NCBI GenBank assembly: GCA_964348895.1 | Contig: CAYGEH010000001.1 | Location: 6,676 to 70,675 of the forward strand | Source of the DNA: an uncultured Gammaproteobacteria bacterium | GTDB taxonomy: Bacteria > Patescibacteriota > Microgenomatia > 0-14-0-10-38-17 | Reading direction: 5' to 3' | Length of the DNA stretch: 64,000 nucleotides | Shown: piece after piece, positions 661-31,332 of the stretch | Layout: each line of letters starts with the position of its first letter | Position numbering within the stretch: the first letter of the stretch is position 1 | Program-made: the position numbers and the translations under genes | Notes under the pieces: model-generated | What the model was told of the DNA's origin: nothing | The model's input: only the letters and a program-made list of their open reading frames with translations | Database searches by the model: none

Positions 661-662
661 TA

Positions 663-3451: not shown

Positions 3452-4135
3452 CTAGGGATATAAAAGATAAGATTGACCAGAAAACTCCTTTAGAGGGCTG
3501 TCTTTTCTTCCAGCAAGAAGAGTGCCAATGTTTCTTCCGCAATCAAATAAGGAAACAACCCTTAAGCGTGAAGAAAACAAATTACGATATTGTTCTTCTG
3601 AGCGATAATAAATAGGGGTACGGTTTCTTATTTTACCCATAAAATTATCAAGGGGAACTGTTTGACTAAGGAAAGGGAGGCGAAAAGAGCTAACCACTAG
3701 GCCATTTCTTGTTAAAACCCTGTTTGTTTGTTCAAGAAAAAGATTAACTTGTTCGTCATCCATAAACATTGTTGTTCCGTCTAGAAAAATTAAATCCAAA
3801 GAATTACTGTGGAAGGGTAGTTTAGTTAGATCGGCCTGAATAAAACTAACCCCTTTTTGATTATAAATATTAAAAAAGGATCTTCTCATGGGGGCCTCAT
3901 TAAAATCAAGCAAGAAAAATTTATCTTGATAGTTTGGTCTTAAGGTTTGGCAATATTTAACAAAACTAGAAGCAGTTTGAGTTTGAGGTGAAAATCCACC
4001 TAAGACTAAATTAAGACTTTTTCCATCGGGAAAAGCAGGTCCATTTCTATTTTCAAAAATTCTTTTTAAGAGGTCATAGCCAAATTGGACACAAAAAGAC
4101 TCAGGAACAGTTCTATAATATTCAGACCAACCCAC
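3452..4135 (-). CDS. Putative class I SAM-dependent methyltransferase
   Basis: LVLGGF (glycine-rich motif I-like), acidic loop ADLTKLPF, and SLDLIFLDGTTMFM (motif II/III-like); soluble; embedded in the glycan locus. Confidence 0.45.
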   Translation of the reverse strand: MGWSEYYRTVPESFCVQFGYDLLKRIFENRNGPAFPDGKSLNLVLGGFSPQTQTASSFVKYCQTLRPNYQDKFFLLDFNEAPMRRSFFNIYNQKGVSFIQADLTKLPFHSNSLDLIFLDGTTMFMDDEQVNLFLEQTNRVLTRNGLVVSSFRLPFLSQTVPLDNFMGKIRNRTPIYYRSEEQYRNLFSSRLRVVSLFDCGRNIGTLLAGRKDSPLKEFSGQSYLLYP

Positions 4136-4185
4136 TTTTAAAAGATAAAATATTAAATAATTGTGTCTTTCATTTAAAAATTATT

Positions 4186-4701
4186 TTATTTTTTCATTTG
4201 ATAAGCCTGAAAGGAAAAACGATTAAAAAAGCGATAAATAAAAAAATAGGAATGCCGATTGCCAGCACAAACTAGCTGATCCCAAGACAGGTGAGCAAGA
4301 TAGGCAAGGCTGGTCCACTCTAGGCCGGCGATTCCCAGCCTGTTGCCCCAAGAGCGAAGGAGGAGCCAAAACAGAGGAACTAACTCCCAACCATGAAAAG
4401 GAACAAAAACCTTTTGATTTTTAACAACATAAGCTTTAGGAGATAAAAAGCTTTTTAAATGAAAGATTGGATCAAACCAAAGTTTTTTTTTAACAAAAAG
4501 GCGGTTTTTTGAAAAATAATATAAATAATCAACGATATGGTCGAAGTCGATTAAGAAGCCCATTAAAAGAGAAAAAGCGATTAGCCAAGGAGAAGAGAAA
4601 ACAATCATCAAAACAAAGCCTATTATCAAGGAAAGAAAGAAGTGAACACCCTCATCAACCAACAGTTTATCCAATCCTAGAGACTGGCCAATGTTTTTCA
4701 T
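4186..4701 (-). CDS. Hypothetical polytopic membrane protein with several conserved His (possibly a membrane-bound metal-dependent hydrolase)
   Basis: 171 aa, 3-4 TM helices, His-containing segments DFDHIVDY, PFHGWE, LAHLSWD; family not resolved. Confidence 0.3.
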   Translation of the reverse strand: MKNIGQSLGLDKLLVDEGVHFFLSLIIGFVLMIVFSSPWLIAFSLLMGFLIDFDHIVDYLYYFSKNRLFVKKKLWFDPIFHLKSFLSPKAYVVKNQKVFVPFHGWELVPLFWLLLRSWGNRLGIAGLEWTSLAYLAHLSWDQLVCAGNRHSYFFIYRFFNRFSFQAYQMKK

Positions 4702-4746
4702 TTTGATTTAGGCATTATCTTATCATCTCAAGAATTAAAGCGCCAA

Positions 4747-5835
4747 TTATTTTTCTAAAGAAGAAAGAACATTTTGATAAACCCCTAGCGTTTCTTTGGC
4801 ACACTTTTTCCAAGAAAATTTCCTAGCCTGGAGTAGTCCTCTTGCCGACAACTTGTTGGCAAGTTCTTTGTCACCAATCACCGTTTCAATCGCCCTAAAA
4901 AGGGAATTTTTTTGATAAGGGTTAAAATAAAGCACGGCTTCTTCTCCAACTTCTGGCAAAGAACCAGTATTGGCCGAAACTACTGGCGTTCCGCAGGCCA
5001 TAGCTTCAACTAGGGGCAGACCAAACCCTTCGTAAAAAGACGGTTGACAATAAATCGAGGCAAGGTTATAAAGGATGGGCAAATCTTCATCAGGAACATA
5101 GCCCAAAAGATGAATTTCTGCTTCATTTTTAGCCATTTTTTGTAACCAAACCAAATCTTGGTTTTCGGGATGATTTCGGTCGTAGTTTTGACTAATTGCT
5201 TGTTTTCCAGCAATTACCAAGGGGAGATTAACTTGCTGACAAGCCTTAACGAGGTTGGGGATATTTTTGTTCCAGTTGACATCGCCAACATAAAAAACAA
5301 ACTTTCTTGGCAGACAGTATTTCTGCCTAATCACCTCTTTAATTTTTTCATTTTTTATTTTTTTAAAGCTTTCCCCCACCCCTAAATAAACAACAAAAAT
5401 TTTTTCTGGCTTATAGTTTACCAAGCGGGCGATATCTTTCTTAGAGTTTTGAGAGTCGGTAATAATAGCTTCGACTTTTTGTAGTTTTTTTTTCTGCCCT
5501 AACCAGTTTATTCTTCCCCTAACACCTGAAGGATAGTGACTAGGAAAAACTAAAGGAGTAAGGTCGTGAACAGTGACGATCGTTGGTCTTGTTTTTCTGG
5601 GTAGGGTGGGAAAAAAAATATCAAATTGGGGATAATGAACAAGAGAAGGTGATTGGTTGTTTGAGTGGTCGAAGGGCTCATCGATCATTTTTATTTTAAA
5701 ATCAGCATATTTCCTATCCTCTTTAATTGTTGCCAATAAGCCTTCAGTTAAGTTTTTGGTATAAAAACCTATTCCGCGAAAACGATGAGAGTTTTTAAGG
5801 GGAGAAATATCAATAGCAACACAAACGGCTGTCAT
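4747..5835 (-). CDS. Glycosyltransferase family 1 (GT4-type, GT-B fold)
   Basis: C-terminal EGFGLPLVEAMACGTPVV nucleotide-sugar binding motif; 362 aa. Confidence 0.85.
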   Translation of the reverse strand: MTAVCVAIDISPLKNSHRFRGIGFYTKNLTEGLLATIKEDRKYADFKIKMIDEPFDHSNNQSPSLVHYPQFDIFFPTLPRKTRPTIVTVHDLTPLVFPSHYPSGVRGRINWLGQKKKLQKVEAIITDSQNSKKDIARLVNYKPEKIFVVYLGVGESFKKIKNEKIKEVIRQKYCLPRKFVFYVGDVNWNKNIPNLVKACQQVNLPLVIAGKQAISQNYDRNHPENQDLVWLQKMAKNEAEIHLLGYVPDEDLPILYNLASIYCQPSFYEGFGLPLVEAMACGTPVVSANTGSLPEVGEEAVLYFNPYQKNSLFRAIETVIGDKELANKLSARGLLQARKFSWKKCAKETLGVYQNVLSSLEK

Positions 5836-5867
5836 ATTATTTTAACAAAACAAATGGAGCCAGTTTT

Positions 5868-6644
5868 TTAGTCTTTTTTGCCACGTTTTTTCTCCCAATA
5901 TTTAATAAAGGCGACAGGATAATGGAGGGCAGAAAAAAAAGCGAAAATTAGGCCGGGAAAACCATCATAAAAGCCCTTGTGTCTTAAATAGCGAAACAGA
6001 AACTCCCCCATCGCCCTTAACTCTATTAAAAAATATTGTTTAATTGTTGGCTTAATTTTGGGGTTAGCTAAATAATCTTTTGCTGTTAACTCAGTATAGC
6101 GATTAAACTTGACCAAATACTCAGCAAAATTAGGATAGGGATAATGAAGTAAGTGGCCAGAAAGCTGATCAATCTTACCAGAGGGAACCTCCATTTGTTC
6201 GTGAACTGATTGGCAGGGTAAATAAGCCCGACCCTTCTTAAAAAACCTAATCACAGAGTCTGGATACTGTCCTCCCTTAGAAAGCCAGTGATTCAAAAAA
6301 AAGTTTTTTCTTTTAATAAAAAAAGCTTCGGCCTCACTCCCCTTCTCGGCTATGGCCAAGATTTCTTTTCTTAGATCTTGGTCAACAATTTCATCAGCAT
6401 CAAGCTGAAGAACCCACTCCCCTTTGCAGGCGTCAATGGCCATTTGTTTGTTAATGTGAAAAATGGGCTTATTAGTGGTTTCAATTACCCTTGCTCCATA
6501 TTCTTTGGCGATTATTTTAGTTTTATCGACAGATTCCCCATCAACAATAACAATTTCTTCTGCCCAATCCTTAACTGCCCCAAGACAAGCAGCAAGGTTT
6601 TTTTCTTCGTTATAAACCGCCAAGGCAATTGAAATTTTTACCAT
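5868..6644 (-). CDS. Glycosyltransferase family 2, WaaE/KdtX-like
   Basis: ISIALAVYNEE...EEIVIVDGESVDKT...LQLDADEIV; paralog of 13723..14511 and of the second domain of 15590..17191. Confidence 0.8.
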   Translation of the reverse strand: MVKISIALAVYNEEKNLAACLGAVKDWAEEIVIVDGESVDKTKIIAKEYGARVIETTNKPIFHINKQMAIDACKGEWVLQLDADEIVDQDLRKEILAIAEKGSEAEAFFIKRKNFFLNHWLSKGGQYPDSVIRFFKKGRAYLPCQSVHEQMEVPSGKIDQLSGHLLHYPYPNFAEYLVKFNRYTELTAKDYLANPKIKPTIKQYFLIELRAMGEFLFRYLRHKGFYDGFPGLIFAFFSALHYPVAFIKYWEKKRGKKD

Positions 6645-6661
6645 AGCACTATTTTTGTTAT

Positions 6662-8332
6662 TTAATCATCAAAACCAATTTCAAAGGCTTCGTTTCCATC
6701 GGGGAAATAAACTGTTTTAACAATCCAATCTTTCGGGAGGTCTCCCGGTTTGCCAACAAAAAGATTTCTCCCCTCTTCTCTTGCGGAAATTTCTTTAACC
6801 GAGTCTCCCGGATCACCAAAATTAGGAAAATAAAACCTGTCAAACCAATCTACCCAAACCCAACCATAGCGTTCAGCCCTAATTTTATCCATTGCCTGAT
6901 ATTTTTCGGGTGGATATTGAGAGTAAAACAAAAAAAAGATATAGGGTTCTCCATAATGGCGAGTAAAAAAAGCTTTGTCAAAATTTTCTCTATTTTCCCA
7001 AACAAAACTAACCGCTTCTTTATAGCCATATTGCCAGTCTCTGGCTTTAGTTCTAGGATAAACAAAATGGTATTGTCTTAGATAGTAAGCAAAGTTTAGT
7101 GTTAAAAGAAGAAAAAAAACAAATAAAAAGATTTTCTTTGTTTTTAGTTTTTTTACTTCCAGCCAAAAACCCCAAAGGCCGAAGGCAATAATTATTTGCC
7201 AGGCCGGGAGAGAGCAGAAAGTTCTTAAGGCATGGGGTATAGAATTTATGGTTGTGGCGGCGGCAACAGGAGAAATTAAAATTTGGGCAAATAAGAGAAA
7301 TGCCGACAAAGACTTTTCTTTAATTAATTTTTTTCCCAACAGGTAGGTTCCCCAAAGAAGAGCGGGGGCAAAAATAATCATAAATTGTCCAAAACCAGGA
7401 ATGCTTTGCTGAGTGTGTTCGGCCCCGTCAATAAAAAGAAATTGAGGAGAAAAATGGGCTAAATAATTTTTTCCAAAAACCCAAAAATAATGAGTAGCCT
7501 TATTATGAATTAATCTTGCGGCCGGATCCGGCCAGCCCAAATCCCAAAGGCGACCCCGTGCTTCATTAATTCTCAAAACAAACCCTGGATCACCCTGAAT
7601 GCTAATCAGACTATAGCGACCCTGAACAATTGGGGTATTAAAATTTAAAATTAAAGGTAGGGCAAAAATGGCGGCGATCAAAGCCCCTCCCAGCAAAGCT
7701 TTTTTATTCTTGAGAAATAAGCTTCTGTCAAAAAGAAAAACAGCAGAAAAGAAAAGGGGTACAAAAACTCGCGAAGAATTATAGGTATAAACCGAAAGGG
7801 AAGCAAAAAGAAATGACCAAATTAAGGAGGTGGGCTTTGTTTTAGCTCGATAAAGAAAGAAAATTGACACCAAAAGGAGTAATTGGGCTAAACCAGCTTC
7901 AAAAGCAACTCTAGTAATTTGTAAGTGCCAAATGTCAATTGCCAAAATAAAAGCAGACAGTAAAGCCAAGACTTTGTTTTTAAAAAGCTGTTTAACAAAA
8001 AAATAGCTGAAGCCAACACCAATAACACCAAACAGTGCTGGCATAAAGCGAGCCCCAATCTCGCTTAATCCGAATAGCCAAATCCCAGGAATAGTGGCAT
8101 AAATAAAAACGGGCAACTTATATTCTCCAAACGATTCAAACCCCAAAAGAGGCCAAGACTTTCCCCATTCATCTTTGCCGGTTTGAAGAATAGAATGGGC
8201 GTTATAAGCAATTGCCACCTCATCCCAATTAAGAGAAGGAGGAACCTGATTTAAGCGAAAAAAGCGCAAGAAACCAGCCAAAATTAAAATTAAAACTAAA
8301 TAGAAAAAAGGAGATTTAAAAAAAGATTTCAT
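6662..8332 (-). CDS. GT-C fold membrane glycosyltransferase, ArnT/PMT-like (GT39/GT83-like)
   Basis: 556 aa, >10 TM; first extracytoplasmic loop carries the DE motif (NWDEVAIAYNAHSIL...GKDEWG), as in ArnT/PMT enzymes. Confidence 0.6.
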   Translation of the reverse strand: MKSFFKSPFFYLVLILILAGFLRFFRLNQVPPSLNWDEVAIAYNAHSILQTGKDEWGKSWPLLGFESFGEYKLPVFIYATIPGIWLFGLSEIGARFMPALFGVIGVGFSYFFVKQLFKNKVLALLSAFILAIDIWHLQITRVAFEAGLAQLLLLVSIFFLYRAKTKPTSLIWSFLFASLSVYTYNSSRVFVPLFFSAVFLFDRSLFLKNKKALLGGALIAAIFALPLILNFNTPIVQGRYSLISIQGDPGFVLRINEARGRLWDLGWPDPAARLIHNKATHYFWVFGKNYLAHFSPQFLFIDGAEHTQQSIPGFGQFMIIFAPALLWGTYLLGKKLIKEKSLSAFLLFAQILISPVAAATTINSIPHALRTFCSLPAWQIIIAFGLWGFWLEVKKLKTKKIFLFVFFLLLTLNFAYYLRQYHFVYPRTKARDWQYGYKEAVSFVWENRENFDKAFFTRHYGEPYIFFLFYSQYPPEKYQAMDKIRAERYGWVWVDWFDRFYFPNFGDPGDSVKEISAREEGRNLFVGKPGDLPKDWIVKTVYFPDGNEAFEIGFDD

Positions 8333-8402
8333 GGATAGTCAGAGCAATAGCTAAAGTTTAACATGATTTTAGCAAACTAGGAAAACTCTTAAATTAAAAG
8401 AA

Positions 8403-10931: not shown

Positions 10932-11036
10932 AGGGTTTTTAGTTTAGGTTAAGTATAGGGAAAGAGAGAGTTAACAACAAGAGTCTTTCCTTGTTTTGAC
11001 CATCTCATTCTTTTGCCCAAATTATATTTTAAGCCA

Positions 11037-20238: not shown

Positions 20239-20239
20239 A

Positions 20240-23432: not shown

Positions 23433-23468
23433 CAGGGGCTAGTGGTGAACCATAAGGGTAGAATAAAA

Positions 23469-24602
23469 TCATTGATGAAGGCGAAAGAATTTAAAAAGTA
23501 ACCCCTGAAGCTTGGGAAGAAGAAAAAGAAAAAACAAAGCCAAAGAAACGAAAAGAGCTCTAAAAAAGACAAAAAACCCTGTCCCCTCCCAAGAGCCACT
23601 GGCTAAAAATGGTTGGTATTTTAAAACCAACAAAAAGAACTGGAAAACAAAAACCACTAACCAAGAAAAGGTTGTCATTTTCATCAAAGGAAAGGCCAGA
23701 AAAAGCCAAGTAAAATACCAGGGTTGAAAGCGATTAATTTGCCAGGCAAAACCAAGCAGGCCAAAAAAAACAAACATCGTTGCCCAGAAGGGTTTATTTT
23801 TAAAAAAAATTAGTGGCCAAGCTAATCCGCTCATAAACTTTACCCCCAAAGAGGCTAAAAAAGCCAGGGTTGTCAAGATTGATCTTTTTTGTTGAGAAAA
23901 AAACAAAGCAACAAAAAACAAGCCAATCATAAGCAGGTCATTGTGGCTGTTGACCAACAACTCTATTAACAAAAAAGGATTAAAAAACCAATAAGCAAAA
24001 ACCTTTCGATCCTGTTTACTAATTTTTAATAAAAGCCAACCAGAAATAAAAAAGACCAATCCGCCCAAAAGCTTCAGACCATAAAAGTTTAAAATAAATC
24101 GGCCAAAAGAAAAAACTGCCGGTAACAAGCTATAAATAAGCCAAATCGGACCATATGGGGCAACACGATGAGTCCAACGCATAAATCTTAACCAAGGATC
24201 AGAAGAAAAATGATCGGGAGCGAAAAGATAGGGATTTTCTTGATAGTACCAAATTATTTTAGCATCAAATAAATAGCTAAAAATATCATAAGACAGAAAC
24301 GGATAAGCCAAACAAGAAATCAGCGTCACCACTCCGGCTAATAATAAAAGTTTTCTAAGACTTGTCTTGTAAATAAAACGAGAAAAAAGCAAGTAAATTT
24401 GAATCAAAACTAAAAGAATAACAATAATTAAATAAAAACGAGAAAAAAGGGGCCGATTAAAATAACCTAAGTGTTGAAATCTTTCTAAAAATTGACTTAT
24501 TGGCTCCCAGGAGATTAAGGTTAAATTAAAGTCAACCCAAAAATAAGAAAAAACTAAAAGAAGAAGGTAACTAATGGGGATTATAAAAAAAAGAAGAGGC
24601 AC
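23469..24602 (-). CDS. Polytopic membrane protein, possible DUF2029/PIG-M-like mannosyltransferase (GT-C)
   Basis: 377 aa, about 10 TM, acidic loop motif SYDIFSYLFDAKII reminiscent of GPI/PIM mannosyltransferase D-x-D loops; weak. Confidence 0.35.
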   Translation of the reverse strand: MPLLFFIIPISYLLLLVFSYFWVDFNLTLISWEPISQFLERFQHLGYFNRPLFSRFYLIIVILLVLIQIYLLFSRFIYKTSLRKLLLLAGVVTLISCLAYPFLSYDIFSYLFDAKIIWYYQENPYLFAPDHFSSDPWLRFMRWTHRVAPYGPIWLIYSLLPAVFSFGRFILNFYGLKLLGGLVFFISGWLLLKISKQDRKVFAYWFFNPFLLIELLVNSHNDLLMIGLFFVALFFSQQKRSILTTLAFLASLGVKFMSGLAWPLIFFKNKPFWATMFVFFGLLGFAWQINRFQPWYFTWLFLAFPLMKMTTFSWLVVFVFQFFLLVLKYQPFLASGSWEGTGFFVFFRALFVSLALFFLFLLPKLQGLLFKFFRLHQ

Positions 24603-24674
24603 GAAAGTCAGTTTTTAATCTTAAGGTTTAAATTTTTTTTAAAAAAACCGTCTTGTAACTGGAAAAAATAAAAC

Positions 24675-25454
24675 TTATTTGTATTTTCCTTTCCAATCAT
24701 TCTTTTTAACATTGACAATCTGTTCTAGCATTTGACGAGACTCTTTAATAAAACTTTTCTTCTTACCAACAGAAACGTCTTCGTCTTGCCAGGCCACTTC
24801 TATTTCTTTAACCTTAGAGCCTGATTTCTGAGCCAAATAGAGCAGCTCAACATCAAAGGCCGTTACTCGCCAACCAGAAGCTTGTTGCCAGTTTTCCAAA
24901 ACCGATAACTTAGGAAAAAGCCTTTGGGCAACCTTGGTTTTAAAAGCCTTGAAACCACACTGGGTATCTTTAATGTTAGGCAAAAGAAGTATTCTCCTTA
25001 AGGAAAGAAAAATTAAAGCAGCCAACTGACGATAAAAAGGAGCCCCCTTTCTTTTTATGCCCCTAGAGCCAATTACCACCTCAAAGCCCTGATCAAAATA
25101 GGGTAATAATTTAGCTACTTCTTTAATTGGAGTTGACTGATCCATATCGGTAAAAAGAACAATCTTTCCCCGAGCTTTTTTAATACCCTGCCAAACAGCA
25201 TAGGGCTTACCACCATGTTGATTCTCCAAAAGAACAAAGCCGGAATGTTTTTGAACAAACTCTTTGGCTACCTCTCTGCTATTGTCGCTTGAGCCATCAT
25301 CAGAAACAATAACCTCCCAAGAGTATGTTTGTTTTTTTAGATAGTCAACTACCTGATTTAATACTCCTTGGCGAAGATTAGCTTCTTCGTTATAACAGGG
25401 AATAACTACCGATAAAAACATTTCTTTATTGCTCTTTGCCGAAGAAGTGGTCAT
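24675..25454 (-). CDS. Polyprenyl-phosphate sugar synthase (DPM1/GtrB/ArnC-like GT2)
   Basis: LSVVIPCYNEEANL...EVIVSDDGSSDNSREV...GKPYAVWQGIKKARGKIVLFTDMDQSTP matches the Dpm1-type signature. Confidence 0.7.
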   Translation of the reverse strand: MTTSSAKSNKEMFLSVVIPCYNEEANLRQGVLNQVVDYLKKQTYSWEVIVSDDGSSDNSREVAKEFVQKHSGFVLLENQHGGKPYAVWQGIKKARGKIVLFTDMDQSTPIKEVAKLLPYFDQGFEVVIGSRGIKRKGAPFYRQLAALIFLSLRRILLLPNIKDTQCGFKAFKTKVAQRLFPKLSVLENWQQASGWRVTAFDVELLYLAQKSGSKVKEIEVAWQDEDVSVGKKKSFIKESRQMLEQIVNVKKNDWKGKYK

Positions 25455-25520
25455 AAGTCATTATTATCAGAAAATAAAACAAAAATCAAACCCCTTTTAT
25501 TATTTTTTAAAATATAAGTC

Positions 25521-27044
25521 TTAGAGGGTTTCTTCTTTTTGTTTCAGTTCGTAAACTAGAACCCCCCAACCGGCCTGTTCTGCTGAAACAACTTCCAGAA
25601 CTCCAAACTGGGCGATTTCCCATAAAGGGTTGCTCTCTGGATTACCACACTCGCCCCCCTCGCAAATAGCAAAAACAGAAGAGGGGTTCAGTGAGTCGAC
25701 TTTAAATTCAGCAAGATAAAGATAATAGCGATAATGATATGCAGAGGGAGAGCCAGTCAAAGAAGTAACAAAGATATTTTTATCCTCAGCTTTTGCCTGA
25801 ATGTGGGCAGCCACCCCTTGAGCCCGTTTAATTTGTTGATTGTTGTCTTTTTGAAAAATTTGTTCATAGTTAACTCTAGAAAGAGAAAACAAGATTGCTA
25901 TAAACAGAAAAAAGTTAACTAACCCCAGGGGGGCAAATCCAAAAACACGAATTTTTTGCCAGAAATAATCGGCCCCACCAATAATAATAAAAAATATTGG
26001 TAAAAGTAACCCAAGGTAATGAAGGTGAATTTGATCTCTAATCACTGTCACGGCAATTAATAAGCTTGAAAAAAAGATTGCCAAAATCAAAAAAACTAAC
26101 CCCAATCTTTTCTTGTTTTTCTTGCGAAAAAAAATAAGAAAAGTCAAAAAGACCAGCAAGCTAACTAAAAAATAAACAAAAGCCCAATTAACTATTAAGG
26201 CTTCTTGGGCAAGCCTTTCTAATAAATCTACTTGTCCTTGAAATAAAGACAATAGTGGTCTCGCTTCGGTTGGTCCAGAATCAAAAACAAACCGCCAGCC
26301 AGCCCGAGTATTAATAAAACGATGTTTTATTTCAAAAAGAATAAAGGGTACTAAAGGAAGAATTGCCCCCCCCAATCCAACTCCCGCTAATTTCAATAAA
26401 ACAATCAAGCCTTTGTTTTTATTCTTAATTGCCCATAGTAGGTAGCCAAGTAGGGCAACTAAAAATAAAACTCCAGTAACATAGTGGAGTTGAATTAAAA
26501 CCCCTAGGGCTGCCCCCGCTAAAAACAAAAACAAACCGCGCCCCCTTTCCCAAAAATCAAGAAAAAACCATAAGAATATTAGGGTGAATAGGGGTACTGG
26601 ATTGGGATTCCAAATAAAACGAGAATTTTGCACAATTAGAGGAGAAAGGGCATATAAAAAAGATCCGATAAAGGCGGAACGAAGATTAAAATATTTAGCC
26701 AAAAGAAAAAATAAAGCAATGTTAGCCAGCCAACCTAAAAAAGCAACAAAAAGAATTGGTCCAGCTGGACTAAAGTTAGCTAACCAGAGAAATGGGGTGA
26801 TTGCCCAGTAGAATAACGGGCCCAAATAAAGACTCCCCATAGAAGTCATCGGACCAATAAAGGGAATGTCTCCCTCTTTGAGAATTTCGGCTGCGACCAA
26901 AACGTCTCGTCCTTGATCGTCTAGAAAGGTAGTTAGCGCCAAAGGACGATAGTGGCGTAACCCAGCACTAATCAATAAAAGGAGCAAAAATAAGATCAAA
27001 ACCCTTCTGGAAGCCAAAATTTTTATTTTAAAAAATTCAATCAT
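25521..27044 (-). CDS. GT-C fold membrane glycosyltransferase, ArnT-like
   Basis: 507 aa, multi-TM, FLDDQGRDVLVAAEIL motif comparable to the ArnT DETRYAEI loop. Confidence 0.5.
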   Translation of the reverse strand: MIEFFKIKILASRRVLILFLLLLLISAGLRHYRPLALTTFLDDQGRDVLVAAEILKEGDIPFIGPMTSMGSLYLGPLFYWAITPFLWLANFSPAGPILFVAFLGWLANIALFFLLAKYFNLRSAFIGSFLYALSPLIVQNSRFIWNPNPVPLFTLIFLWFFLDFWERGRGLFLFLAGAALGVLIQLHYVTGVLFLVALLGYLLWAIKNKNKGLIVLLKLAGVGLGGAILPLVPFILFEIKHRFINTRAGWRFVFDSGPTEARPLLSLFQGQVDLLERLAQEALIVNWAFVYFLVSLLVFLTFLIFFRKKNKKRLGLVFLILAIFFSSLLIAVTVIRDQIHLHYLGLLLPIFFIIIGGADYFWQKIRVFGFAPLGLVNFFLFIAILFSLSRVNYEQIFQKDNNQQIKRAQGVAAHIQAKAEDKNIFVTSLTGSPSAYHYRYYLYLAEFKVDSLNPSSVFAICEGGECGNPESNPLWEIAQFGVLEVVSAEQAGWGVLVYELKQKEETL

Positions 27045-28779
27045 TTTTTTTGAAAAAATTTTTAGGCAAAAACCGACCAGTTAAGGTAAAAAACAAAAAT
27101 GCCCCCCAAGAAAATAAGCTAATCCAATTTGCAACCCTTCTAACGGAAGTATCTTGCAAGGAAATTTCCACCACAACCTTTCCTTCCGGTAAAGATAAAA
27201 CCATAAAACCATTTTCATTAGTTCTAATATCAACAAGCTCTTTGTTTACTCTTGCTTGCCAACCAGGAAAATAAAAGCGTTTAATAATTACCTCTTCTTC
27301 TTTCGGGAGCAGGGCAGCAAAAATAATTTTATCAGCTCGATTAAGGCTAATTTCTACTTTTTCTTGAGCAACAACTAGAGGCGGTTGGTAATGATCTTCC
27401 GGAACTTCTTTAACCGTTTTAGGTAAATAGTCGGTTAGAAACTCTCTTTGTTGATACTGCCATAGAGGATAAGATAAATAAGACTGGTCGTTAATGGCTA
27501 ATCTTTCTCGGGGCTGAAAATAATTAAAGTTTAATCCCAGTAAGGCTAAAAACAAGAAAACAAAAACTAAAAAGAAGCCTTTCCGTAACCAATTAACCAA
27601 GAATCCTGCTAAAACTGAAGCAGAAAGGCCAATAAAAATTAAAAAACGCCAAGGAAATTGTAAAAAGGCCAAAAAGGGCAATCCTTGCCAAATAAAAATA
27701 GACCGCTGATGACTTAAAAAGGCAAAAAACCAAAAAAAGACCAAAAAGAATAGCGGCAAACAAGCTTTCTTGTCTTGATAAAAAAACTTTCTATCGCTAA
27801 GCCAGCGCCAACCAAGTAGGGCTAAGGTTAGAAAAACGGCCAGCCAGTGAAAATGGCCAATCTGAAAAGACATTCCATCCTCTATTCCAAAAACAGACCC
27901 CCCATAATTCCAATATCGAGAAAGAAATAATTGGCGCAAAGAAGGAAAGTGATTGTAATAAGCATAATAACCACTAGTCATATCAGCAATATGGGTTAAA
28001 TTCTTTTCTAAAATTGCTGGAAGAATAAAAAAAGCGGCCATTCCCAGGGCTAAAATAAAAGAAAAATCAAAAAAGGCCCCCTGTTTAAGTTTGGTCCAAG
28101 ACCAATCTCGATTAGCAACAAACAAAAATAAAACGAAAACCACTAGCCAGGCTAAACCAATTAAGGCAACTGCATTATGAGCAATCAAAATTAAAAACAA
28201 ACTAAAGGTAAGACAAAGAAACTTTTTTATATTTTGCTGATCAAAAAAGCTTTTGGCAAAATAAAAAGCAAGTGGTAACAAGTTCATTCCCCAATATTCA
28301 GCTAAAGTTCCTCGAACATAAATACTTAGCGCACGATATGGTAAAAACAACCAAAATAAAGCTGAAATTGCTCCACCCCAAAAACCAAACAACAGTTTTC
28401 CTAAAAAAAAGATACTAATTGTTCCAACCAGCCCCGCTAGGGCAAAACTTAACTTGTTGGCTAAAGTGAAGGAGGTCCCCAAGAAGCGGAAAATCATTCC
28501 AGCAAAATAAGACAGAGGTGGATAAAAATTAAAAAAAGGGTAACCATAGCCCTTGCCCAGGTCTGGCAACCAACGAGGGGGAAACTGACCTTCGCCTAAA
28601 ATTCTTTCTAGATTATAAAGACGAATAAAATGAACTCCGTCGTGGGTGGGAAAATCTCCTGTTAAAAAGAAAAAGCGATGGGTAAGAATGAAGGCGACCA
28701 ACAACAAAAACAAAACTAATCCCTTTTGCCAGCGGGAATTTAACCAGACCATCATTTTCTTTTTCTTAAAAAATAACAA
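27037..28779 (-). CDS. Polytopic membrane protein of the QFPPRW paralog family (putative GT-C)
   Basis: THDGVHFIRLYNLER...GQFPPRWLPDLGKGYGYPFFNFY, SIYVRGTLAEYW, RYWNYGGS...DGMSFQIG, C-terminal FYFPGWQ plus a final TM. Confidence 0.55.
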   Translation of the reverse strand: MLFFKKKKMMVWLNSRWQKGLVLFLLLVAFILTHRFFFLTGDFPTHDGVHFIRLYNLERILGEGQFPPRWLPDLGKGYGYPFFNFYPPLSYFAGMIFRFLGTSFTLANKLSFALAGLVGTISIFFLGKLLFGFWGGAISALFWLFLPYRALSIYVRGTLAEYWGMNLLPLAFYFAKSFFDQQNIKKFLCLTFSLFLILIAHNAVALIGLAWLVVFVLFLFVANRDWSWTKLKQGAFFDFSFILALGMAAFFILPAILEKNLTHIADMTSGYYAYYNHFPSLRQLFLSRYWNYGGSVFGIEDGMSFQIGHFHWLAVFLTLALLGWRWLSDRKFFYQDKKACLPLFFLVFFWFFAFLSHQRSIFIWQGLPFLAFLQFPWRFLIFIGLSASVLAGFLVNWLRKGFFLVFVFLFLALLGLNFNYFQPRERLAINDQSYLSYPLWQYQQREFLTDYLPKTVKEVPEDHYQPPLVVAQEKVEISLNRADKIIFAALLPKEEEVIIKRFYFPGWQARVNKELVDIRTNENGFMVLSLPEGKVVVEISLQDTSVRRVANWISLFSWGAFLFFTLTGRFLPKNFFKKND

Positions 28780-28847
28780 GGCTTTCTTTTCTTTAAGTAT
28801 TAAACACTAATTGTATAATTAATGTATTATCATATAATATAGGAAAA
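28780..28847. promoter_or_regulatory. AT-rich divergent intergenic region (probable promoters for 27037..28779 and 28848..30047)
   Basis: 68-nt AT-rich spacer between divergent start codons. Confidence 0.3.
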
Positions 28848-30047
28848 ATGAAAAGAAAAAAAGTTAAAAATATTTGGAGCAAGACTCAAGCCTTGGCTCT
28901 TCGTTTTCCCTTAATCACTCTTGGTTTCGCTTTTGTTATTAGTCTTTCTGTTCTTTATTTTCCCTTCATTTTTCACCTCGACTCCTTTTGGGGTTTAGCC
29001 TACACCTTTGACCGATTCAACTTTTCTACCATTTTACTTAACTTTGATAGCCTTAATTATATTATTGTTGCCAAAACTTGGTATTTGCCAGAACAGATTG
29101 TTACCCTCTTTCCAGGCATTGCCGAACCACCCCATTATTTTCCAGCTCACTTTCCTCTTTATCCAGCCCTAATTTGGCTAGTGGCTAAACTACCAGCTGT
29201 TAACTATCCCTATGCCTCAATTTTAGTTACCCTAGTTTCTTCTGTTTCTACAATAATAGTTTTTTACTATTTTGTTAAAATGTTTTTGGGCGAAAAGAAG
29301 GCTTTAATTTTATCCTTGGTGTTCTTGGTTTTTCCTGCTCGGTGGCTGGTTGTCAGAGCTGTTCCTAGTCCAGAGCCATTATTTTTAACTACTATCCTGG
29401 GAGCAATTTATTTCTTCAAAAAAGAAAAATATGCCAAAAGCGCACTTTTTGTAATTTTTTCTCAAACTCTTAAAAGCCCTGGAGTTTTATTGGCTGGCTC
29501 CCTAGGCTTAATTACCTTAGTTAAAATTTATCAAGAAAAAAATCAACTTAAAGATGCGCTCAAAAAATATTGGCCAATGTTAATTACCCCAGTTGGATTA
29601 TTGGCGGTTTTCTTTTTTTATTATTTGGTTACTGGTGACTTTCTCATGTACTTCAAGACTGGGGACAATATTCACCTTTATTGGCCACCATTTCAGGTTT
29701 TTAATTTTCTAGAAAGATGGGTTAACACAATTTGGTTAGAAGATGTTGTTTTTATTTATCTTGCCGGTTTAATTTTACTCCTTAAGCTCTGGGAAAAGTA
29801 TCGTTTTGACATTTTGTTTCTTTTTCCTGGAATTTTTTATCTATCAATTCTCTTTGTTTCTCATCGGGATATCAGTCGATATCTTCTTCCTGCAGTCCCT
29901 TTTTTAATCTTGGGAGGAGAAAGCTTTTTTACCAGCAAAAAATTTCTTATTGCCTTAGCGATTCTTTTACCAGCTTTATTTTTATATTCCATTAACTTTA
30001 TTTCTTTTAACGTTATGCCCCTGGCCGACTGGACCCCCTATCTTTAG
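28848..30047 (+). CDS. Polytopic membrane protein (possible GT-C-like), unknown family
   Basis: 399 aa, about 10 TM; plus strand, divergent from the main operon. Confidence 0.35.
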   Translation: MKRKKVKNIWSKTQALALRFPLITLGFAFVISLSVLYFPFIFHLDSFWGLAYTFDRFNFSTILLNFDSLNYIIVAKTWYLPEQIVTLFPGIAEPPHYFPAHFPLYPALIWLVAKLPAVNYPYASILVTLVSSVSTIIVFYYFVKMFLGEKKALILSLVFLVFPARWLVVRAVPSPEPLFLTTILGAIYFFKKEKYAKSALFVIFSQTLKSPGVLLAGSLGLITLVKIYQEKNQLKDALKKYWPMLITPVGLLAVFFFYYLVTGDFLMYFKTGDNIHLYWPPFQVFNFLERWVNTIWLEDVVFIYLAGLILLLKLWEKYRFDILFLFPGIFYLSILFVSHRDISRYLLPAVPFLILGGESFFTSKKFLIALAILLPALFLYSINFISFNVMPLADWTPYL

Positions 30048-30144
30048 TCTTCTTCTAATAAAAGGCATATTTCTTAAATCCGCTAAAAACAAACCCTGTC
30101 CGATTTTTTTGACAAAAAAAGAGGCTGATGTTGCCAAGAAGGGG

Positions 30145-31332
30145 TTATTTTTTTGTTTTAACCCTTAAAAAGGAAGGGGCAAAAGCCTTCCAAATAACAA
30201 CGTTGTACATTAACCAATTATAGGGAATAACCAAAAAACCAATTGCCAACACAAGCCAAAGGTGTCGCCAGGCGTTTCCTGTCAGACTGGTTCCTAGCCA
30301 AACGACTAGAGTTTGTAAAATTAAGGCTCCCGCCGAGGCTAGATTAAAGGCAAGAAACTTTTTTAGAACCTCAAAAAAGGTTTTAAACTGATAAGTTTTA
30401 AAAGTCCAAAAATTATTAAATAAGAAATTAGAAATAATGGCCATTTCTGTGGCCAAAAGAGTTGCTAGGGCAATTGAAAGGTTAAGTTGATAGAAAAGCT
30501 CCAACCCTGAAGCGTTAACTAAATATCCAATAAAACCAACTAAAGAAAACTTTAAAAATCGTTGGCTGACCGGATCGTGCCAGCGAAGCAGAACAACAGT
30601 TCGAAAAATGTCTTTGGCGGTATTAGAAGAAATTTTTGATTCTCCTTTAATTCGTAACCCAAATTGTAAGGGAATTTCACTGGTTTTTGCTTTTAAACTA
30701 ACCACCATGCGATAAAGTAAGTCTAATTTATAGCCAAACTTATAAGAATAAAGCTTGTCTAGGTTGATTTTGTCAACGAAACCCCTAACTCGAGAAGCCC
30801 TCAGGCCGGTGGTAGGATCAGTAATGCTAAAAAAATTCTTCGTAGGAAAGAAAAGAATAAATCGCGCTACTAGTCCGCCGACTTCAGAAAAAAACACTCT
30901 CTTTATCCCCCACCCTTTAGGGTTAGAACCGCCTTTAATTTTCCTAGAACCTAAAACATAATCATAGCCTTGGTCAATTTTTTTTAACAAAACAGGAATG
31001 TCTTTAGGTGGGTGTTGAAAATCAGCATCAAACTCAATTATTACTTCAGCAGACAATTTTTCTATCGCATAACGAAAACCAACCACATATGCCCAACCAA
31101 TACCCATTTTTTCTTTATTCAAATAAAGATGAAGATTGGGATATTGGGCTTGCTTTTTTTGAACAATTTTATAAGTACCATCAGGAGAAGTGTCGTCAAC
31201 AATTAAAAGATAAATTTGCCAATCAGCAACTTTAGGAAAAGTTTTGCTGAAAAGATGATCAATCATTTCTCCAATTACCTCAGCCTCGTTATAAGTGGGA
31301 ATGATTACCACGGCTGTTTTCTTTTTTGTCAT
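30145..31332 (-). CDS. Polyprenyl-phosphate sugar synthase (DPM1-like GT2) fused to a C-terminal GtrA-like membrane domain
   Basis: AVVIIPTYNEAEVI...LLIVDDTSPDGT...EFDADFQHPP (Dpm1 signature), then 4 TM with FLKFSLVGFIGYLVN...NFLFNNFWTF (GtrA-like). Confidence 0.75.
   Translation of the reverse strand: MTKKKTAVVIIPTYNEAEVIGEMIDHLFSKTFPKVADWQIYLLIVDDTSPDGTYKIVQKKQAQYPNLHLYLNKEKMGIGWAYVVGFRYAIEKLSAEVIIEFDADFQHPPKDIPVLLKKIDQGYDYVLGSRKIKGGSNPKGWGIKRVFFSEVGGLVARFILFFPTKNFFSITDPTTGLRASRVRGFVDKINLDKLYSYKFGYKLDLLYRMVVSLKAKTSEIPLQFGLRIKGESKISSNTAKDIFRTVVLLRWHDPVSQRFLKFSLVGFIGYLVNASGLELFYQLNLSIALATLLATEMAIISNFLFNNFWTFKTYQFKTFFEVLKKFLAFNLASAGALILQTLVVWLGTSLTGNAWRHLWLVLAIGFLVIPYNWLMYNVVIWKAFAPSFLRVKTKK

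What the first reader, a model, noticed from the sequence alone, without database searches (positions are those of the whole stretch)
3452..31332. About 28-kb co-directional envelope glycosylation mega-operon rich in GT-C enzymes and apparently lacking an initiating phosphoglycosyltransferase
The locus holds 22 consecutive minus-strand genes, many with overlapping start and stop codons (4- or 8-nt overlaps at 13723/13730, 15590/15593, 27037/27044, 21873/21895). It contains at least nine cytoplasmic GT2/GT1 enzymes, two Wzx-like flippases, two polyprenyl-P-sugar synthases, two methyltransferases and at least nine polytopic GT-C-like proteins. I find no WbaP/WecA-type initiating transferase, no Wzy polymerase and no Wzz. 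The high ratio of lipid-linked-monosaccharide machinery to polymer machinery points to extracytoplasmic decoration of a polymer or of proteins, possibly O-glycosylation, rather than a classic O-antigen pathway.
Basis: partly seen in the sequence, partly recalled or inferred. Interest (0 to 1): 0.6.

Follow-up and report, generated by a model that had tools for sequence, protein, structure and literature searches.

The report
Conserved GT-C-rich envelope glycosylation gene cluster
A small-genome, uncultivated Shapirobacteria-like bacterium carries a real, conserved sugar-coat gene cluster of about 35 kb with nine membrane-embedded "outside-acting" glycosyltransferases; it is built from known enzyme families and follows a known logic, and the lack of a starter enzyme inside the cluster is not unusual.

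Summary
The cluster is real and not an assembly artefact. Other assemblies match 100% over window 1-10722 and 20145-41332 and show the same genes between. Shapirobacteria and other Microgenomates keep its core.

- eight cytoplasmic GT2/GT4 proteins (nine domains)
- two DPMS/ArnC-like polyprenyl-phosphate sugar synthases
- nine GT-C proteins
- methyltransferases (the second is a weak call)
- Wzx flippases

The three unassigned membrane proteins are GT-C enzymes, not a PGT or Wzy. No PGT, Wzy or Wzz appears in the 64-kb window or in 6.6 kb further left.

Corrections:
- 28848-30047 is on the plus strand.
- The 21873/21895 overlap is 23 nt.
- The second Wzx (1959-3182) and rmlABCD (32178-35444) lie outside the stated range.
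- About 89% of genes in the window are minus-strand, so co-directionality means little.

Best reading: cytoplasmic transferases build lipid-linked glycans, flippases move them across the membrane, and GT-C enzymes extend or attach them outside using polyprenyl-phosphate sugars. This resembles Gram-positive multi-component glycosylation systems and mycobacterial lipomannan assembly.

A PGT absent in cis is ordinary; a PGT-independent start remains possible. A GT2 fused to a GT-C is the most unusual part. Interest is moderate.

The parts
1959..3182 (-). Wzx1, a MOP-family flippase (407 aa).
   Evidence: PF01943 at 55 bits and PF13440 at 54 bits.
3452..4135 (-). SAM-dependent methyltransferase.
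   Evidence: PF08241 at 34 bits, above the cutoff.
4186..4701 (-). Small membrane protein of 171 aa with unknown role. It carries DFDH, HGWE and HLSWD motifs.
   Evidence: No Pfam or NCBIfam family and no PDB sequence hit. It is too small to be a Wzy or a PF00953-type PGT.
4747..5835 (-). GT4 (GT-B fold) cytoplasmic glycosyltransferase.
   Evidence: PF00534 at 114.7 bits. All NCBIfam hits are below the curated cutoffs.
5868..6644 (-). GT2 glycosyltransferase, a paralogue of 13723 and of the C-terminal half of 15590.
   Evidence: PF00535 at 65.9 bits. BLASTP paralogy.
6662..8332 (-). GT-C enzyme of the PMT/PMT_2 (ArnT-like) type.
   Evidence: PF13231 at 37 bits and PF02366 at 31.7 bits, both above the cutoffs. 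Matches ArnT 5ezm at 1.4e-4.
8403..10931 (-). Fusion of an N-terminal GT2 domain (about residues 1-290, WbbL/EpsD-like) to a C-terminal PTPS_related/YfhO-like GT-C domain (about residues 300-842).
   Evidence: PF00535 at 76 bits. The C-terminal part is 34% and 31% identical to 27037 and 20240. The fusion is conserved in Shapirobacteria and other Microgenomates. AlphaFold2 model with pLDDT 89.5 and pTM 0.81.
11037..11969 (-). GT2 glycosyltransferase.
   Evidence: PF00535 at 72.8 bits.
11966..12694 (-). Probable methyltransferase (weak call). The start is revised to TTG 12694, giving 242 aa.
   Evidence: Methyltransferase families at E of about 4e-3, below the cutoffs. Gene callers give 242 aa. 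Candidate start codons are listed.
12678..13730 (-). GT4 glycosyltransferase.
   Evidence: PF00534 at 70 bits.
13723..14511 (-). GT2 glycosyltransferase.
   Evidence: PF00535 at 69 bits.
14643..15593 (-). GT2 glycosyltransferase. Its best NCBIfam hit is the rhamnosyltransferase subfamily, far below the cutoff.
   Evidence: PF00535 at 67.5 bits. TIGR01556 at 53 bits against a cutoff of 200.
15590..17191 (-). Protein with two GT2 domains.
   Evidence: PF00535 at 99.5 bits in two stretches.
17293..18798 (-). Wzx2, a MOP flippase. It abuts or overlaps the three GT-C genes upstream of it.
   Evidence: PF13440 at 190 bits. Hits to the MOP flippase, O-glycosylation flippase and TuaB models, all below the cutoffs. 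Junction gaps of 0, 1 and -23 nt.
18799..20238 (-). GT-C enzyme distantly related to PMT_2 and TPR-PMT (TMTC-like) proteins.
   Evidence: Its homologues carry PF13231, and the distant ones are TPR-containing O-mannosyltransferase-like proteins. D33-D34 is invariant in 79 sequences.
20240..21895 (-). GT-C enzyme of the PTPS_related (PF10131)/YfhO-like family.
   Evidence: PF10131 at 47 bits. AlphaFold2 model with pLDDT 86.6 and pTM 0.89. The top 33 Foldseek PDB hits are all GT-C enzymes: STT3, AglB, AftD, PglB, ArnT, AftA, ALG12, ALG9 and Emb.
21873..23432 (-). GT-C enzyme, PMT_2-like. The start may be at 23405, giving 510 aa.
   Evidence: PF13231 at 25.5 bits, just under the 26.1 cutoff. Orthologues at 67-74% identity sit in the same position in relatives.
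23469..24602 (-). GT-C enzyme of the MptA/MptB family.
   Evidence: PF26314 is precomputed for this exact protein. TIGR03459 at 1.3e-10 and NF038066 at 2.4e-6, both below the cutoffs.
24675..25454 (-). Polyprenyl-phosphate sugar synthase-like GT2 with no transmembrane helix.
   Evidence: Matches DPMS 5mlz at 8e-18, ArnC at 8e-15 and GtrB at 5e-12. The best NCBIfam hits are ArnC, a generic glycosyltransferase model (PRK10073) and PgfS, followed by PgaC/IcaA and the halophile dolichyl-phosphate hexose transferase.
25521..27044 (-). GT-C enzyme of the PMT_2 type.
   Evidence: PF13231 at 43 bits. Agl23-type TIGR03663 at 3e-7.
27037..28779 (-). GT-C enzyme, a PTPS_related paralogue.
   Evidence: PF10131 at 20 bits, below the cutoff. 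BLASTP 1e-51 to 20240 and 4e-61 to 8403.
28848..30047 (+). GT-C enzyme, Gpi18/PIG-V-like. It is on the plus strand and divergent from 27037.
   Evidence: Its homologues carry PF13231, PF02366 or PF04188 and are named Gpi18-like mannosyltransferase or GT39. N65 and D67 are invariant in 120 sequences.
30145..31332 (-). DPMS-type polyprenyl-phosphate sugar synthase: a GT2 domain plus a GtrA/DPMS membrane domain. It is a separate transcription unit.
   Evidence: PF00535 at 93 bits and PF04138 at 54 bits. Matches 5mlz at 1.7e-46 over residues 8-347. The DADFQ sequence fits the DxDxQ motif described in PMC10821137.
32178..35444 (-). rmlD, rmlC, rmlB and rmlA: the pathway that makes dTDP-L-rhamnose.
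   Evidence: PF04321, PF00908, PF16363 and PF00483.
38737..39750 (-). NAD-dependent sugar epimerase or dehydratase, possibly supplying a nucleotide sugar.
   Evidence: PF16363 and PF01370.

Best explanation
The locus, together with rmlABCD on its right and further GT genes beyond the left end of the window, is the main cell-surface glycan assembly region of a Shapirobacteria-like bacterium (Microgenomates, CPR). I propose that it works on both sides of the membrane.

1. In the cytoplasm, GT2 and GT4 enzymes and methyltransferases build one or more lipid-linked oligosaccharides. These probably contain rhamnose.
2. Two DPMS/ArnC-like GT2 enzymes load single sugars onto polyprenyl phosphate.
3. 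The two Wzx flippases, and possibly the GtrA-like domain of 30145, move these lipid-linked sugars to the outer face of the membrane.
4. Nine GT-C enzymes then extend, branch or attach the glycan outside the cell, using the polyprenyl-phosphate-linked donors.

The acceptor is most likely a wall polysaccharide or a membrane-anchored lipoglycan.

Initiation could happen in three ways, with my rough estimates:
- by a PGT encoded elsewhere in the genome (about 0.45)
- by a DPMS-like GT2 priming on polyprenyl monophosphate, as in the L. lactis polysaccharide pellicle or archaeal AglJ (about 0.2)
- by GT4 enzymes acting on a membrane glycolipid, as in mycobacterial PIM/LM (about 0.2)

Shown here: the family and fold assignments, the gene order, and its conservation. 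Inferred: membrane topology, donors, acceptors, the order of steps and the mode of initiation.
For: [quoted passage not shown] These are the GT-A polyprenyl-phosphate sugar synthases, the flippases and the GT-C enzymes.
- The outer-loop acidic residues expected for active GT-C enzymes are conserved. DD is at 100% in the 18799 family, N65/D67 is at 100% in the 28848 family, and D39 is at 90% or more, with R45 and R61 invariant, in the PTPS-like family.
- Three GT-C genes and Wzx2 abut or overlap, with gaps of -23, 1 and 0 nt.
- In all 12 loci L006-L017 the Wzx homologue has 2-6 GT-C genes within 10 kb. Nine of the 12 also have the 24675-type GT2, and this holds down to about 33% Wzx identity. 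None of the three clearly non-CPR loci (L018, L021, L022) has a full GT-C gene nearby; the one hit in L018 is a short stretch that I take to be the GT2 domain.
- rmlABCD is adjacent, and two GT2 domains have the rhamnosyltransferase subfamily as their best, though weak, hit.
- Published precedents exist: CsbB/GtcA/YfhO and GacI/J/K/L (PMC8035078), and the L. lactis WpsA/B, Wzx and GT-C route that works on C55-P (PMC10821137).
- PF10131 is a member of the GT-C clan (PMC7801869).
Against: - There is no biochemical, transcript or glycan evidence. The organism is uncultivated.
- Every NCBIfam hit is below the curated cutoff for its model, so sugar specificities are unknown.
- No LCP ligase, polymerase or acceptor gene was found in the window.
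- The genes may form several independent modules rather than one pathway. Six junctions of 66-131 nt and one divergent gene allow for separate transcription units.
- The rest of the genome could not be scanned for a PGT.
Confidence: 0.55

Rival explanations
1. The main function is protein O-glycosylation, either PMT-like O-mannosylation or an oligosaccharyltransferase-like en bloc transfer. The GT-C enzymes would glycosylate secreted, pilin or S-layer proteins using polyprenyl-phosphate sugars or flipped oligosaccharides.
For: - 6662 passes the Pfam PMT cutoff.
- Distant relatives of 18799 are TPR-containing O-mannosyltransferase-like proteins.
- The best fold matches of 20240 are the oligosaccharyltransferases STT3, AglB and PglB.
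- Wzx2 hits the O-glycosylation flippase model, and 24675 and 30145 hit PgfS.
- Secreted proteins rich in Pro and Thr linkers are encoded nearby, at 36839-38617 and 140-637.
Against: - No window protein hits STT3 (PF02516), PMT_4TMC, MIR or Wzy_C/PglL.
- The Foldseek TM-scores are only about 0.45-0.5, and AftD, ArnT and AftA score almost as well.
- In Gram-positive bacteria, PMT_2 and YfhO-type GT-C enzymes modify teichoic acids and rhamnans (PMC8035078).
- Nine GT-C enzymes and nine cytoplasmic GT domains are many more than known bacterial O-glycosylation systems need (my own knowledge, not tested here).
Confidence: 0.15
2. The locus is a glycosylation island: several independent modules (GT-A plus GT-C pairs, and a Wzx-dependent oligosaccharide unit) that act on different surface molecules. 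They sit together only because of gene order and strand bias, and do not form one pathway.
For: - About 89% of genes in the window are on the minus strand, by my count.
- There are six junctions of 66-131 nt, one divergent gene and a separate unit for 30145.
- B. subtilis and L. lactis each run several independent GT-A/GT-C pairs (PMC8035078).
- Distant relatives keep only subsets of the genes.
Against: - The core order is conserved as a block across Shapirobacteria at 60-80% amino-acid identity.
- Three GT-C genes are tightly joined to Wzx2.
- There are only two synthases in the window, plus a third beyond its left end, for nine GT-C enzymes. Donors must therefore be shared.
Confidence: 0.2
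3. It is a classical Wzx/Wzy-dependent O-antigen or capsule-like pathway, with the polymerase or the PGT hidden among the polytopic membrane proteins.
For: Two Wzx flippases and many cytoplasmic GT enzymes are present. Wzy proteins are notoriously divergent (my own knowledge).
Against: - Every polytopic protein in the locus is assigned to Wzx or to a GT-C family.
- No PF02397, PF00953, PF04932, PF14897 or Wzz hit appears in the window.
Confidence: 0.05
4. It is an assembly chimera that joins unrelated glycosylation genes.
For: None.
Against: - Assemblies from other samples and pipelines are 100% identical to window 1-10722 and 20145-41332.
- The middle part has the same gene lengths and order in four more contigs.
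- Exact proteins also occur on contigs of 225, 279 and 691 kb.
- GC content is uniform at 0.34-0.40 and the GC skew falls steadily.
- Other species keep the same gene order.
Confidence: 0.01

Closest known systems
Multi-component (three-component) transmembrane glycosylation systems: CsbB/GtcA/YfhO, GacI/J/K/L and GtrA/B/V
   Same: Both have a GT-A polyprenyl-phosphate sugar synthase, a flippase (GtrA-type or Wzx-type) and a GT-C transferase of the PMT_2 or YfhO-like family that acts outside the membrane. Synthase and GT-C genes are adjacent.
   Different: Here there are nine GT-C enzymes of at least five sequence families for two or three synthases, all in one locus. One GT-C is fused to a non-DPMS-type GT2. 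The acceptor is unknown. No stand-alone GtrA or GacJ-like protein is present.
Lactococcus lactis rhamnose-rich cell-wall polysaccharide and pellicle pathway (rml, rgp, wpsA-J)
   Same: Both are clusters of tens of kb (the lactococcal size is from my own knowledge). Both have rml genes, many cytoplasmic GT enzymes, a DPMS-like GT2 that can prime on C55-P without a PGT, a Wzx flippase and a GT-C that attaches the product outside the membrane (PMC10821137).
   Different: No ABC transporter was found here for a rhamnan backbone, and no WpsH/WpsI-type polymerase. There are many more GT-C enzymes. No hit reaches orthologue level.
Mycobacterial and corynebacterial lipomannan/LAM and arabinogalactan assembly (Ppm1, PimE, MptA/B/C, Emb, Aft)
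   Same: Both use polyprenyl-phosphate sugar donors and a battery of GT-C enzymes to build the polymer outside the membrane. GT4 enzymes could start the chain on a lipid without a PGT. 23469 is an MptA/B-family protein.
   Different: The mycobacterial genes are scattered around the genome, whereas these are clustered (my own knowledge). Similarity to MptA and MptB is far below the equivalog cutoffs. No PimA/PimB orthologue and no arabinose pathway was identified.
Archaeal Agl N-glycosylation and bacterial PglB (oligosaccharyltransferase-type GT-C)
   Same: A DPMS-like GT2 such as AglJ can prime oligosaccharide assembly on a monophosphate carrier. The PTPS-like GT-C 20240 has STT3, AglB and PglB as its best fold matches. 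25521 weakly resembles Agl23.
   Different: No window protein matches the STT3 Pfam family. The WWDYG-like stretch is not conserved and is in a different position. TM-scores are only about 0.45-0.5.
Wzx/Wzy-dependent O-antigen and capsule clusters
   Same: Both have Wzx flippases, nucleotide-sugar genes and several cytoplasmic GT enzymes. A PGT absent in cis is common, as with wecA-dependent E. coli O-antigen clusters.
   Different: No Wzy, Wzz or ligase was detected here. GT-C enzymes dominate the membrane-protein content.

Membership tests
Multi-component transmembrane glycosylation system | A membrane-associated GT-A (GT2) enzyme that makes a polyprenyl-phosphate sugar. | tested here: met
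   30145 matches DPMS 5mlz at 1.7e-46 over residues 8-347 and carries PF04138. 24675 matches DPMS, ArnC and GtrB at 8e-18 to 5e-12. Enzyme activity was not tested.
Multi-component transmembrane glycosylation system | A flippase for the lipid-linked sugar, either GtrA-family or Wzx-type. | tested here: met
   There are two MOP/Wzx proteins, at 1959 and 17293, and a GtrA/DPMS membrane domain fused in 30145. Their substrates are unknown.
Multi-component transmembrane glycosylation system | A polytopic GT-C fold transferase with a conserved acidic residue in the first outer loop. | tested here: met
   Nine proteins qualify. The evidence is Pfam PMT, PMT_2 and PF10131 hits, the Pfam families of their homologues, a fold search that returned only GT-C enzymes, and conserved DD, NxD and D39 residues.
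Multi-component transmembrane glycosylation system | A defined acceptor polymer (LTA, WTA, rhamnan or O-antigen). | not testable with these tools
   No acceptor can be read from the sequence.
Wzx/Wzy-dependent polysaccharide pathway | An initiating phosphoglycosyltransferase (PF02397 or PF00953). | tested here: not met
   None is present in the 64-kb window, in the 6.6 kb to its left, or near the Wzx gene in related Microgenomates loci. The rest of the genome was not searched.
Wzx/Wzy-dependent polysaccharide pathway | A Wzy polymerase and a Wzz/PCP chain-length regulator. | tested here: not met
   There are no Pfam hits, and every polytopic protein is assigned to Wzx or to a GT-C family.
Wzx/Wzy-dependent polysaccharide pathway | A Wzx flippase. 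| tested here: met
   PF13440 at 190 bits and PF01943 at 55 bits.
Mycobacterial-type LM/LAM assembly | MptA/MptB-type alpha-1,6-mannosyltransferase that depends on polyprenyl-phosphate mannose. | tested here: inconclusive
   23469 has a precomputed PF26314 hit. It scores 40.8 bits against a 439 cutoff for TIGR03459 and 26.3 bits against a 40 cutoff for NF038066. This shows family-level resemblance only.
Mycobacterial-type LM/LAM assembly | A phosphatidylinositol-based primer made by PimA/PimB-type GT4 enzymes. | not tested
   Two GT4 proteins are present, but no specific PimA or PimB model was matched.
Protein O-mannosyltransferase (PMT, GT39) | A PMT N-terminal domain together with MIR and PMT_4TMC C-terminal modules. 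| tested here: not met
   6662 passes PF02366 (31.7 bits against a 22.7 cutoff), but no MIR or PMT_4TMC hit was found in any locus protein.
Oligosaccharyltransferase (STT3, AglB, PglB) | An STT3 family match and a conserved WWDYG motif in the C-terminal external domain. | tested here: not met
   No window protein hits PF02516. 20240 resembles oligosaccharyltransferases only at fold level, with TM-scores of about 0.45-0.5. The W-D/N-Y-G-like stretch is not among the conserved columns of alignment A2.
L. lactis PSP-type pathway primed on C55-P | A GacI/WpsA-like GT2 with a GacJ/WpsB-like activator, cytoplasmic elongating GT enzymes, a Wzx flippase and a GT-C. | tested here: inconclusive
   The component types are all present. 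No GacJ/WpsB-like small protein was found. Only biochemistry could show whether elongation happens on a monophosphate carrier (PMC10821137).

The most novel reading that the evidence does not exclude
Shapirobacteria and other Microgenomates may assemble their main envelope glycan without any phosphoglycosyltransferase. In this reading, a DPMS-like GT2 primes polyprenyl monophosphate, cytoplasmic GT enzymes elongate the chain, and Wzx flips it. PTPS-related GT-C enzymes, which resemble oligosaccharyltransferases in fold, then transfer or extend it outside the cell. The conserved GT2 and GT-C fusion (8403) would physically couple a cytoplasmic step to an extracytoplasmic one. This would be an archaeal- or lactococcal-style route serving as the dominant envelope pathway of a CPR lineage.
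Probability: 0.15. Interest if true: 0.7.

Novelty: new variant of a known kind. Interest (0 to 1): 0.4.

Why it matters
The make-up and assembly of the CPR/Patescibacteria cell envelope is still an open question. [quoted passage not shown]

This locus and its flanks take up roughly 40 kb. The largest contig carrying it is only 691 kb, so by my estimate about 5% of the genome is given over to it. Its core is conserved across Microgenomates. That points to a complex glycan assembled outside the membrane as a major surface component, and such a glycan could matter for attachment to hosts or partner cells.

The locus also offers concrete targets for experiments: two DPMS-like synthases, the uncharacterised PF10131 GT-C family, and a two-sided GT2 and GT-C fusion.

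The logic itself is already known from Gram-positive bacteria and mycobacteria, so this extends a known kind of system to a new lineage rather than defining a new one.

Tried and rejected
- **Fold search of the fusion.** The top 50 Foldseek hits listed for the full 8403 model were GT-A enzymes, apart from a hyaluronan synthase, so none spoke to its membrane domain. The stand-alone paralogue 20240 was modelled instead.
- **Promoters and terminators.** The scans gave counts at the level of shuffled sequence (46 against 40 and 39; 23 against 17; 22 against 22). No clear intergenic terminator was seen, so they say nothing about operon structure.
- **Genome identity.** The listing of cluster members gave no accession or organism name for the 691-kb NCBI contig.
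- **PDB sequence searches.** Searches with 20240, 23469 and 4186 found nothing useful.
- **Literature.** Searches found no paper linking Microgenomates or Patescibacteria to GT-C clusters.
- **GT2 relatives fused to PGT-like domains.** I considered using these (P0255 and others) as evidence for a PGT partner. I rejected this as a lead only, because by eye their C-terminal regions look atypical.
- **The WDYG-like stretch.** I considered it as an oligosaccharyltransferase signature in the PTPS-like paralogues. I rejected it because it is not conserved in alignment A2 and lies in the middle of the protein.
- **The 171-aa protein 4186.** It remains unassigned.

Full report
**What is in the sequence**

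ORF listing and Pfam scans confirm a dense block of glycosylation genes across 3452-31332.

- *Cytoplasmic transferases.* There are two GT4 proteins (4747, 12678). There are GT2 proteins at 5868, 11037, 13723 and 14643, a protein with two GT2 domains at 15590, and the N-terminal GT2 domain of 8403. That makes eight proteins and nine GT-A or GT-B domains.
- *Methyltransferases.* 3452 is a clear methyltransferase. 11966 is a weak one.
- *Polyprenyl-phosphate sugar synthases.* 30145 has a GT2 domain and a GtrA/DPMS membrane domain. It aligns over residues 8-347 of 395 with Pyrococcus dolichol-phosphate mannose synthase 5mlz at 1.7e-46. 24675 matches DPMS, ArnC and GtrB at 8e-18 to 5e-12.
- *Flippases.* 17293 is a Wzx/MOP flippase. 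A second one lies at 1959-3182, just outside the stated range.

**The membrane proteins**

Nine proteins are GT-C glycosyltransferases.

- 6662 and 25521 pass the Pfam PMT_2 cutoff, and 6662 also passes PMT. 21873 falls 0.6 bits short of the PMT_2 cutoff.
- 20240 passes PF10131 (PTPS_related). 27037 and the C-terminal 540 residues of 8403 are its paralogues at 31-34% identity.
- PF10131 belongs to the Pfam GT-C clan and has no known function (PMC7801869).
- An AlphaFold2 model of 20240 (pLDDT 86.6, pTM 0.89) gave only GT-C enzymes as its top 33 Foldseek PDB matches: STT3, AglB, AftD, PglB, ArnT, AftA, ALG12, ALG9 and Emb.

All three resolve as GT-C enzymes.

- 23469 carries a precomputed MptA_B-family hit and weak NCBIfam MptA and MptB hits.
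- Homologues of 18799 carry PMT_2 and grade into TPR-containing O-mannosyltransferase-like proteins. D33-D34 in the first outer loop is invariant in 79 sequences.
- Homologues of 28848 carry PMT_2, PMT or PIG-V domains and are named Gpi18-like mannosyltransferase. N65 and D67 are invariant in 120 sequences.

The 171-aa protein at 4186 remains unassigned.

**Corrections to the observation**

- 28848-30047 is on the plus strand. The co-directional run is therefore 20 genes (28779 down to 3452). 30145 is a separate unit, convergent with 28848 and divergent from trmD.
- The 21873/21895 overlap is 23 nt. The other stated overlaps are correct, and 11966/11969 overlaps by 4 nt as well.
- Gene callers place the start of 11966 at TTG 12694, giving 242 aa.
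- Co-directionality carries no weight. By my count, about 50 of 56 genes in the window are on the minus strand, and the cumulative GC skew falls steadily.
- Tight spacing is the real evidence for operons. Eight of 19 junctions overlap or have a gap of 1 nt or less. The three GT-C genes 21873, 20240 and 18799 abut or overlap each other and Wzx2.
- Six junctions of 66-131 nt leave room for internal promoters. The promoter and terminator scans were at chance level.

**Extent of the locus**

The locus is larger than stated. rmlD, rmlC, rmlB and rmlA lie at 32178-35444, separated from it only by trmD. An epimerase or dehydratase lies at 38737.

A contig that extends 6.6 kb beyond the left end of the window (L023) carries more glycosylation genes:
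- two further GT4 genes
- a third DPMS-like GT2 with a DGDRQ motif
- a methyltransferase
- a hexapeptide acyltransferase

**Is it real?**

- Contigs from other samples and assemblers (ENA ERZ27247823 and ERZ27247794; Logan ERR3094288 to ERR3094291) are 100% identical to window 1-10722 and 20145-41332.
- The middle part has the same gene lengths and order in four more contigs.
- Exact proteins occur on contigs of 225, 279 and 691 kb.
- GC content is uniform.

The locus is not chimeric.

**Organism and conservation**

The nearest GTDB genomes are Candidatus Shapirobacteria MAGs, at about 80% Wzx identity. In four close relatives the order PTPS, PMT_2, DPMS-like GT2, MptA/B-like, PMT_2, PTPS, PMT_2-like, Wzx, then GT2, GT2, GT2, GT4, methyltransferase, GT2 is kept at 60-80% amino-acid identity.

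In all 12 loci L006-L017 the Wzx homologue has 2-6 GT-C genes within 10 kb. Nine of the 12 also have the 24675-type GT2, and this holds down to about 33% Wzx identity. Several of these records are labelled Pseudomonadales or Gammaproteobacteria, which I suspect reflects misbinning. The three clearly non-CPR loci have no full GT-C gene nearby.

**PGT, Wzy and Wzz**

- No ORF scanned across the 64-kb window hits PF02397, PF00953, Wzy-type or Wzz families.
- None is on record in the left flank.
This served as a positive control. It found none in the window or the other loci.

The rest of the genome could not be searched with these tools.

**How unusual is the missing PGT?**

It is not unusual in itself. 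Most E. coli O-antigen clusters lack an initiating transferase because wecA sits in the ECA cluster (PMC7685785). GacO, the enzyme that starts the streptococcal gac pathway, is not one of the gacA-L genes listed for that cluster (PMC8035078).

Two known routes also need no PGT at all:
- The L. lactis pellicle is built on C55 monophosphate. It is primed by the DPMS-like GT2 WpsA/B, elongated by cytoplasmic GT enzymes, flipped by a Wzx and attached by a GT-C (PMC10821137).
- Mycobacterial lipomannan starts on a membrane glycolipid through GT4 enzymes and is extended by GT-C enzymes (established knowledge, not tested here).

**Most likely mechanism (confidence about 0.55)**

I read the locus as a glycan assembly line that works on both sides of the membrane. 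Cytoplasmic GT2 and GT4 enzymes and methyltransferases build lipid-linked oligosaccharides, which probably contain rhamnose. DPMS-like synthases make polyprenyl-phosphate monosaccharides. Wzx flippases export these lipid-linked sugars. Nine GT-C enzymes then extend, branch or attach the glycan outside the membrane, on a wall polysaccharide or a lipoglycan.

Family and fold assignments, gene order and conservation are shown. Donors, acceptors, step order and initiation are inferred.

Rival readings:
- protein O-glycosylation (0.15)
- an island of independent modules (0.2, partly compatible with the main model)
- a cryptic Wzy pathway (0.05)
- an assembly artefact (0.01)

**The GT2 and GT-C fusion**

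8403 is the least ordinary element. It joins a WbbL/EpsD-like GT2 (not a DPMS-type) to a PTPS-like GT-C. The AlphaFold2 model is confident (pLDDT 89.5, pTM 0.81).

- The GT-A domain spans residues 1-290.
- A long helix follows at 292-330.
- The SHDG loop that corresponds to the conserved D39 loop of 20240 comes next.
- About 12 membrane helices follow, then an external beta-sandwich, then a final membrane helix.

This topology would place one catalytic domain on each side of the membrane, although that is inferred and not shown.

Full-length fusions occur in about 17 clusters at 90% identity. Among the top 150 representatives at 50% identity there are about five. Where a source names the organism, it is Shapirobacteria, Microgenomates or Patescibacteria. 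Stand-alone PTPS-like proteins are far more numerous.

**Novelty and interest**

The components and the logic are known. The lineage, the concentration of nine GT-C enzymes from at least five sequence families in one conserved locus, and the fusion are new variations. I found no paper describing GT-C clusters in Microgenomates or Patescibacteria.

The CPR envelope is acknowledged as unresolved (PMC5220378), so the locus is a useful entry point. Interest is 0.4.

Noticed in passing
window 36839-38617 (-), 140-637 (+) and 40883-42178 (-): Three proteins that look secreted or surface-exposed sit next to the locus. One is a 592-aa protein with a PT-rich linker (PTPTKPPISPIPTVLPLPSPTPTPSPS) and no Pfam hit. 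One is the C-terminal part of a 251-aa protein rich in S, T, P, Q and E, complete in L023 at 2739-3494. One is an LTD-domain protein. They could be O-glycosylation substrates, but this is speculative.
   Followed up: no
window 8403-10931, 20240-21895 and 27037-28779: The three PTPS-related GT-C paralogues share a W-D/N-Y-G-like stretch (SPWDYGVS, WSWGFGGS, YWNYGGS) that recalls the WWDYG motif of oligosaccharyltransferases. It lies in what looks like a mid-protein external loop. It is not among the conserved columns of alignment A2, so it is probably not equivalent to WWDYG.
   Followed up: partly
P0255, P0259, P0260, P0262 and P0304, relatives of the GT2 domain of window 8403-10931: In other phyla, including Eisenbacteria, KSB1 and Marinimicrobia, the same GT2 subfamily is fused to PF13727/PF02397 (WbaP-like PGT) regions rather than to a GT-C. 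This suggests that the subfamily acts right next to an initiation step. By eye, the PGT-like parts look atypical.
   Followed up: partly
L023 3376-10022, beyond the left end of the window: Glycosylation genes continue past the window. They include two GT4 genes, a third DPMS-like GT2 of 233 aa with a DGDRQ motif, a methyltransferase, a hexapeptide acyltransferase, and a 221-aa protein with hydrophobic N- and C-terminal stretches and no family.
   Followed up: partly
whole window 1-64000: About 89% of genes are on the minus strand and the cumulative GC skew falls steadily from -0.08 to -2.69. The window therefore lies within one replichore and has strong strand bias.
   Followed up: yes
window, the 25 nt upstream of each locus gene: I saw no Shine-Dalgarno-like sequence upstream of any locus gene. 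The upstream regions are AT-rich, and several genes use TTG or GTG starts.
   Followed up: no
window 39743-40045 (-): A 100-aa ORF matches only positions 23-84 of the 264-position TsaD model and sits next to tsaE. It may be a very short TsaB-like protein or a gene remnant.
   Followed up: no
window 4186-4701 (-): A conserved 171-aa membrane protein with His/Asp motifs (DFDH, HGWE, HLSWD) sits inside the cluster and has no family or structural match. It might be a small membrane hydrolase.
   Followed up: partly
L008 and L013-L015 (GTDB record titles): Several MAG contigs labelled 'uncultured Gammaproteobacteria' or 'Pseudomonadales' carry this Microgenomates-type gene order, at 33-74% Wzx identity. 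This suggests the contigs were misbinned or mislabelled.
   Followed up: no
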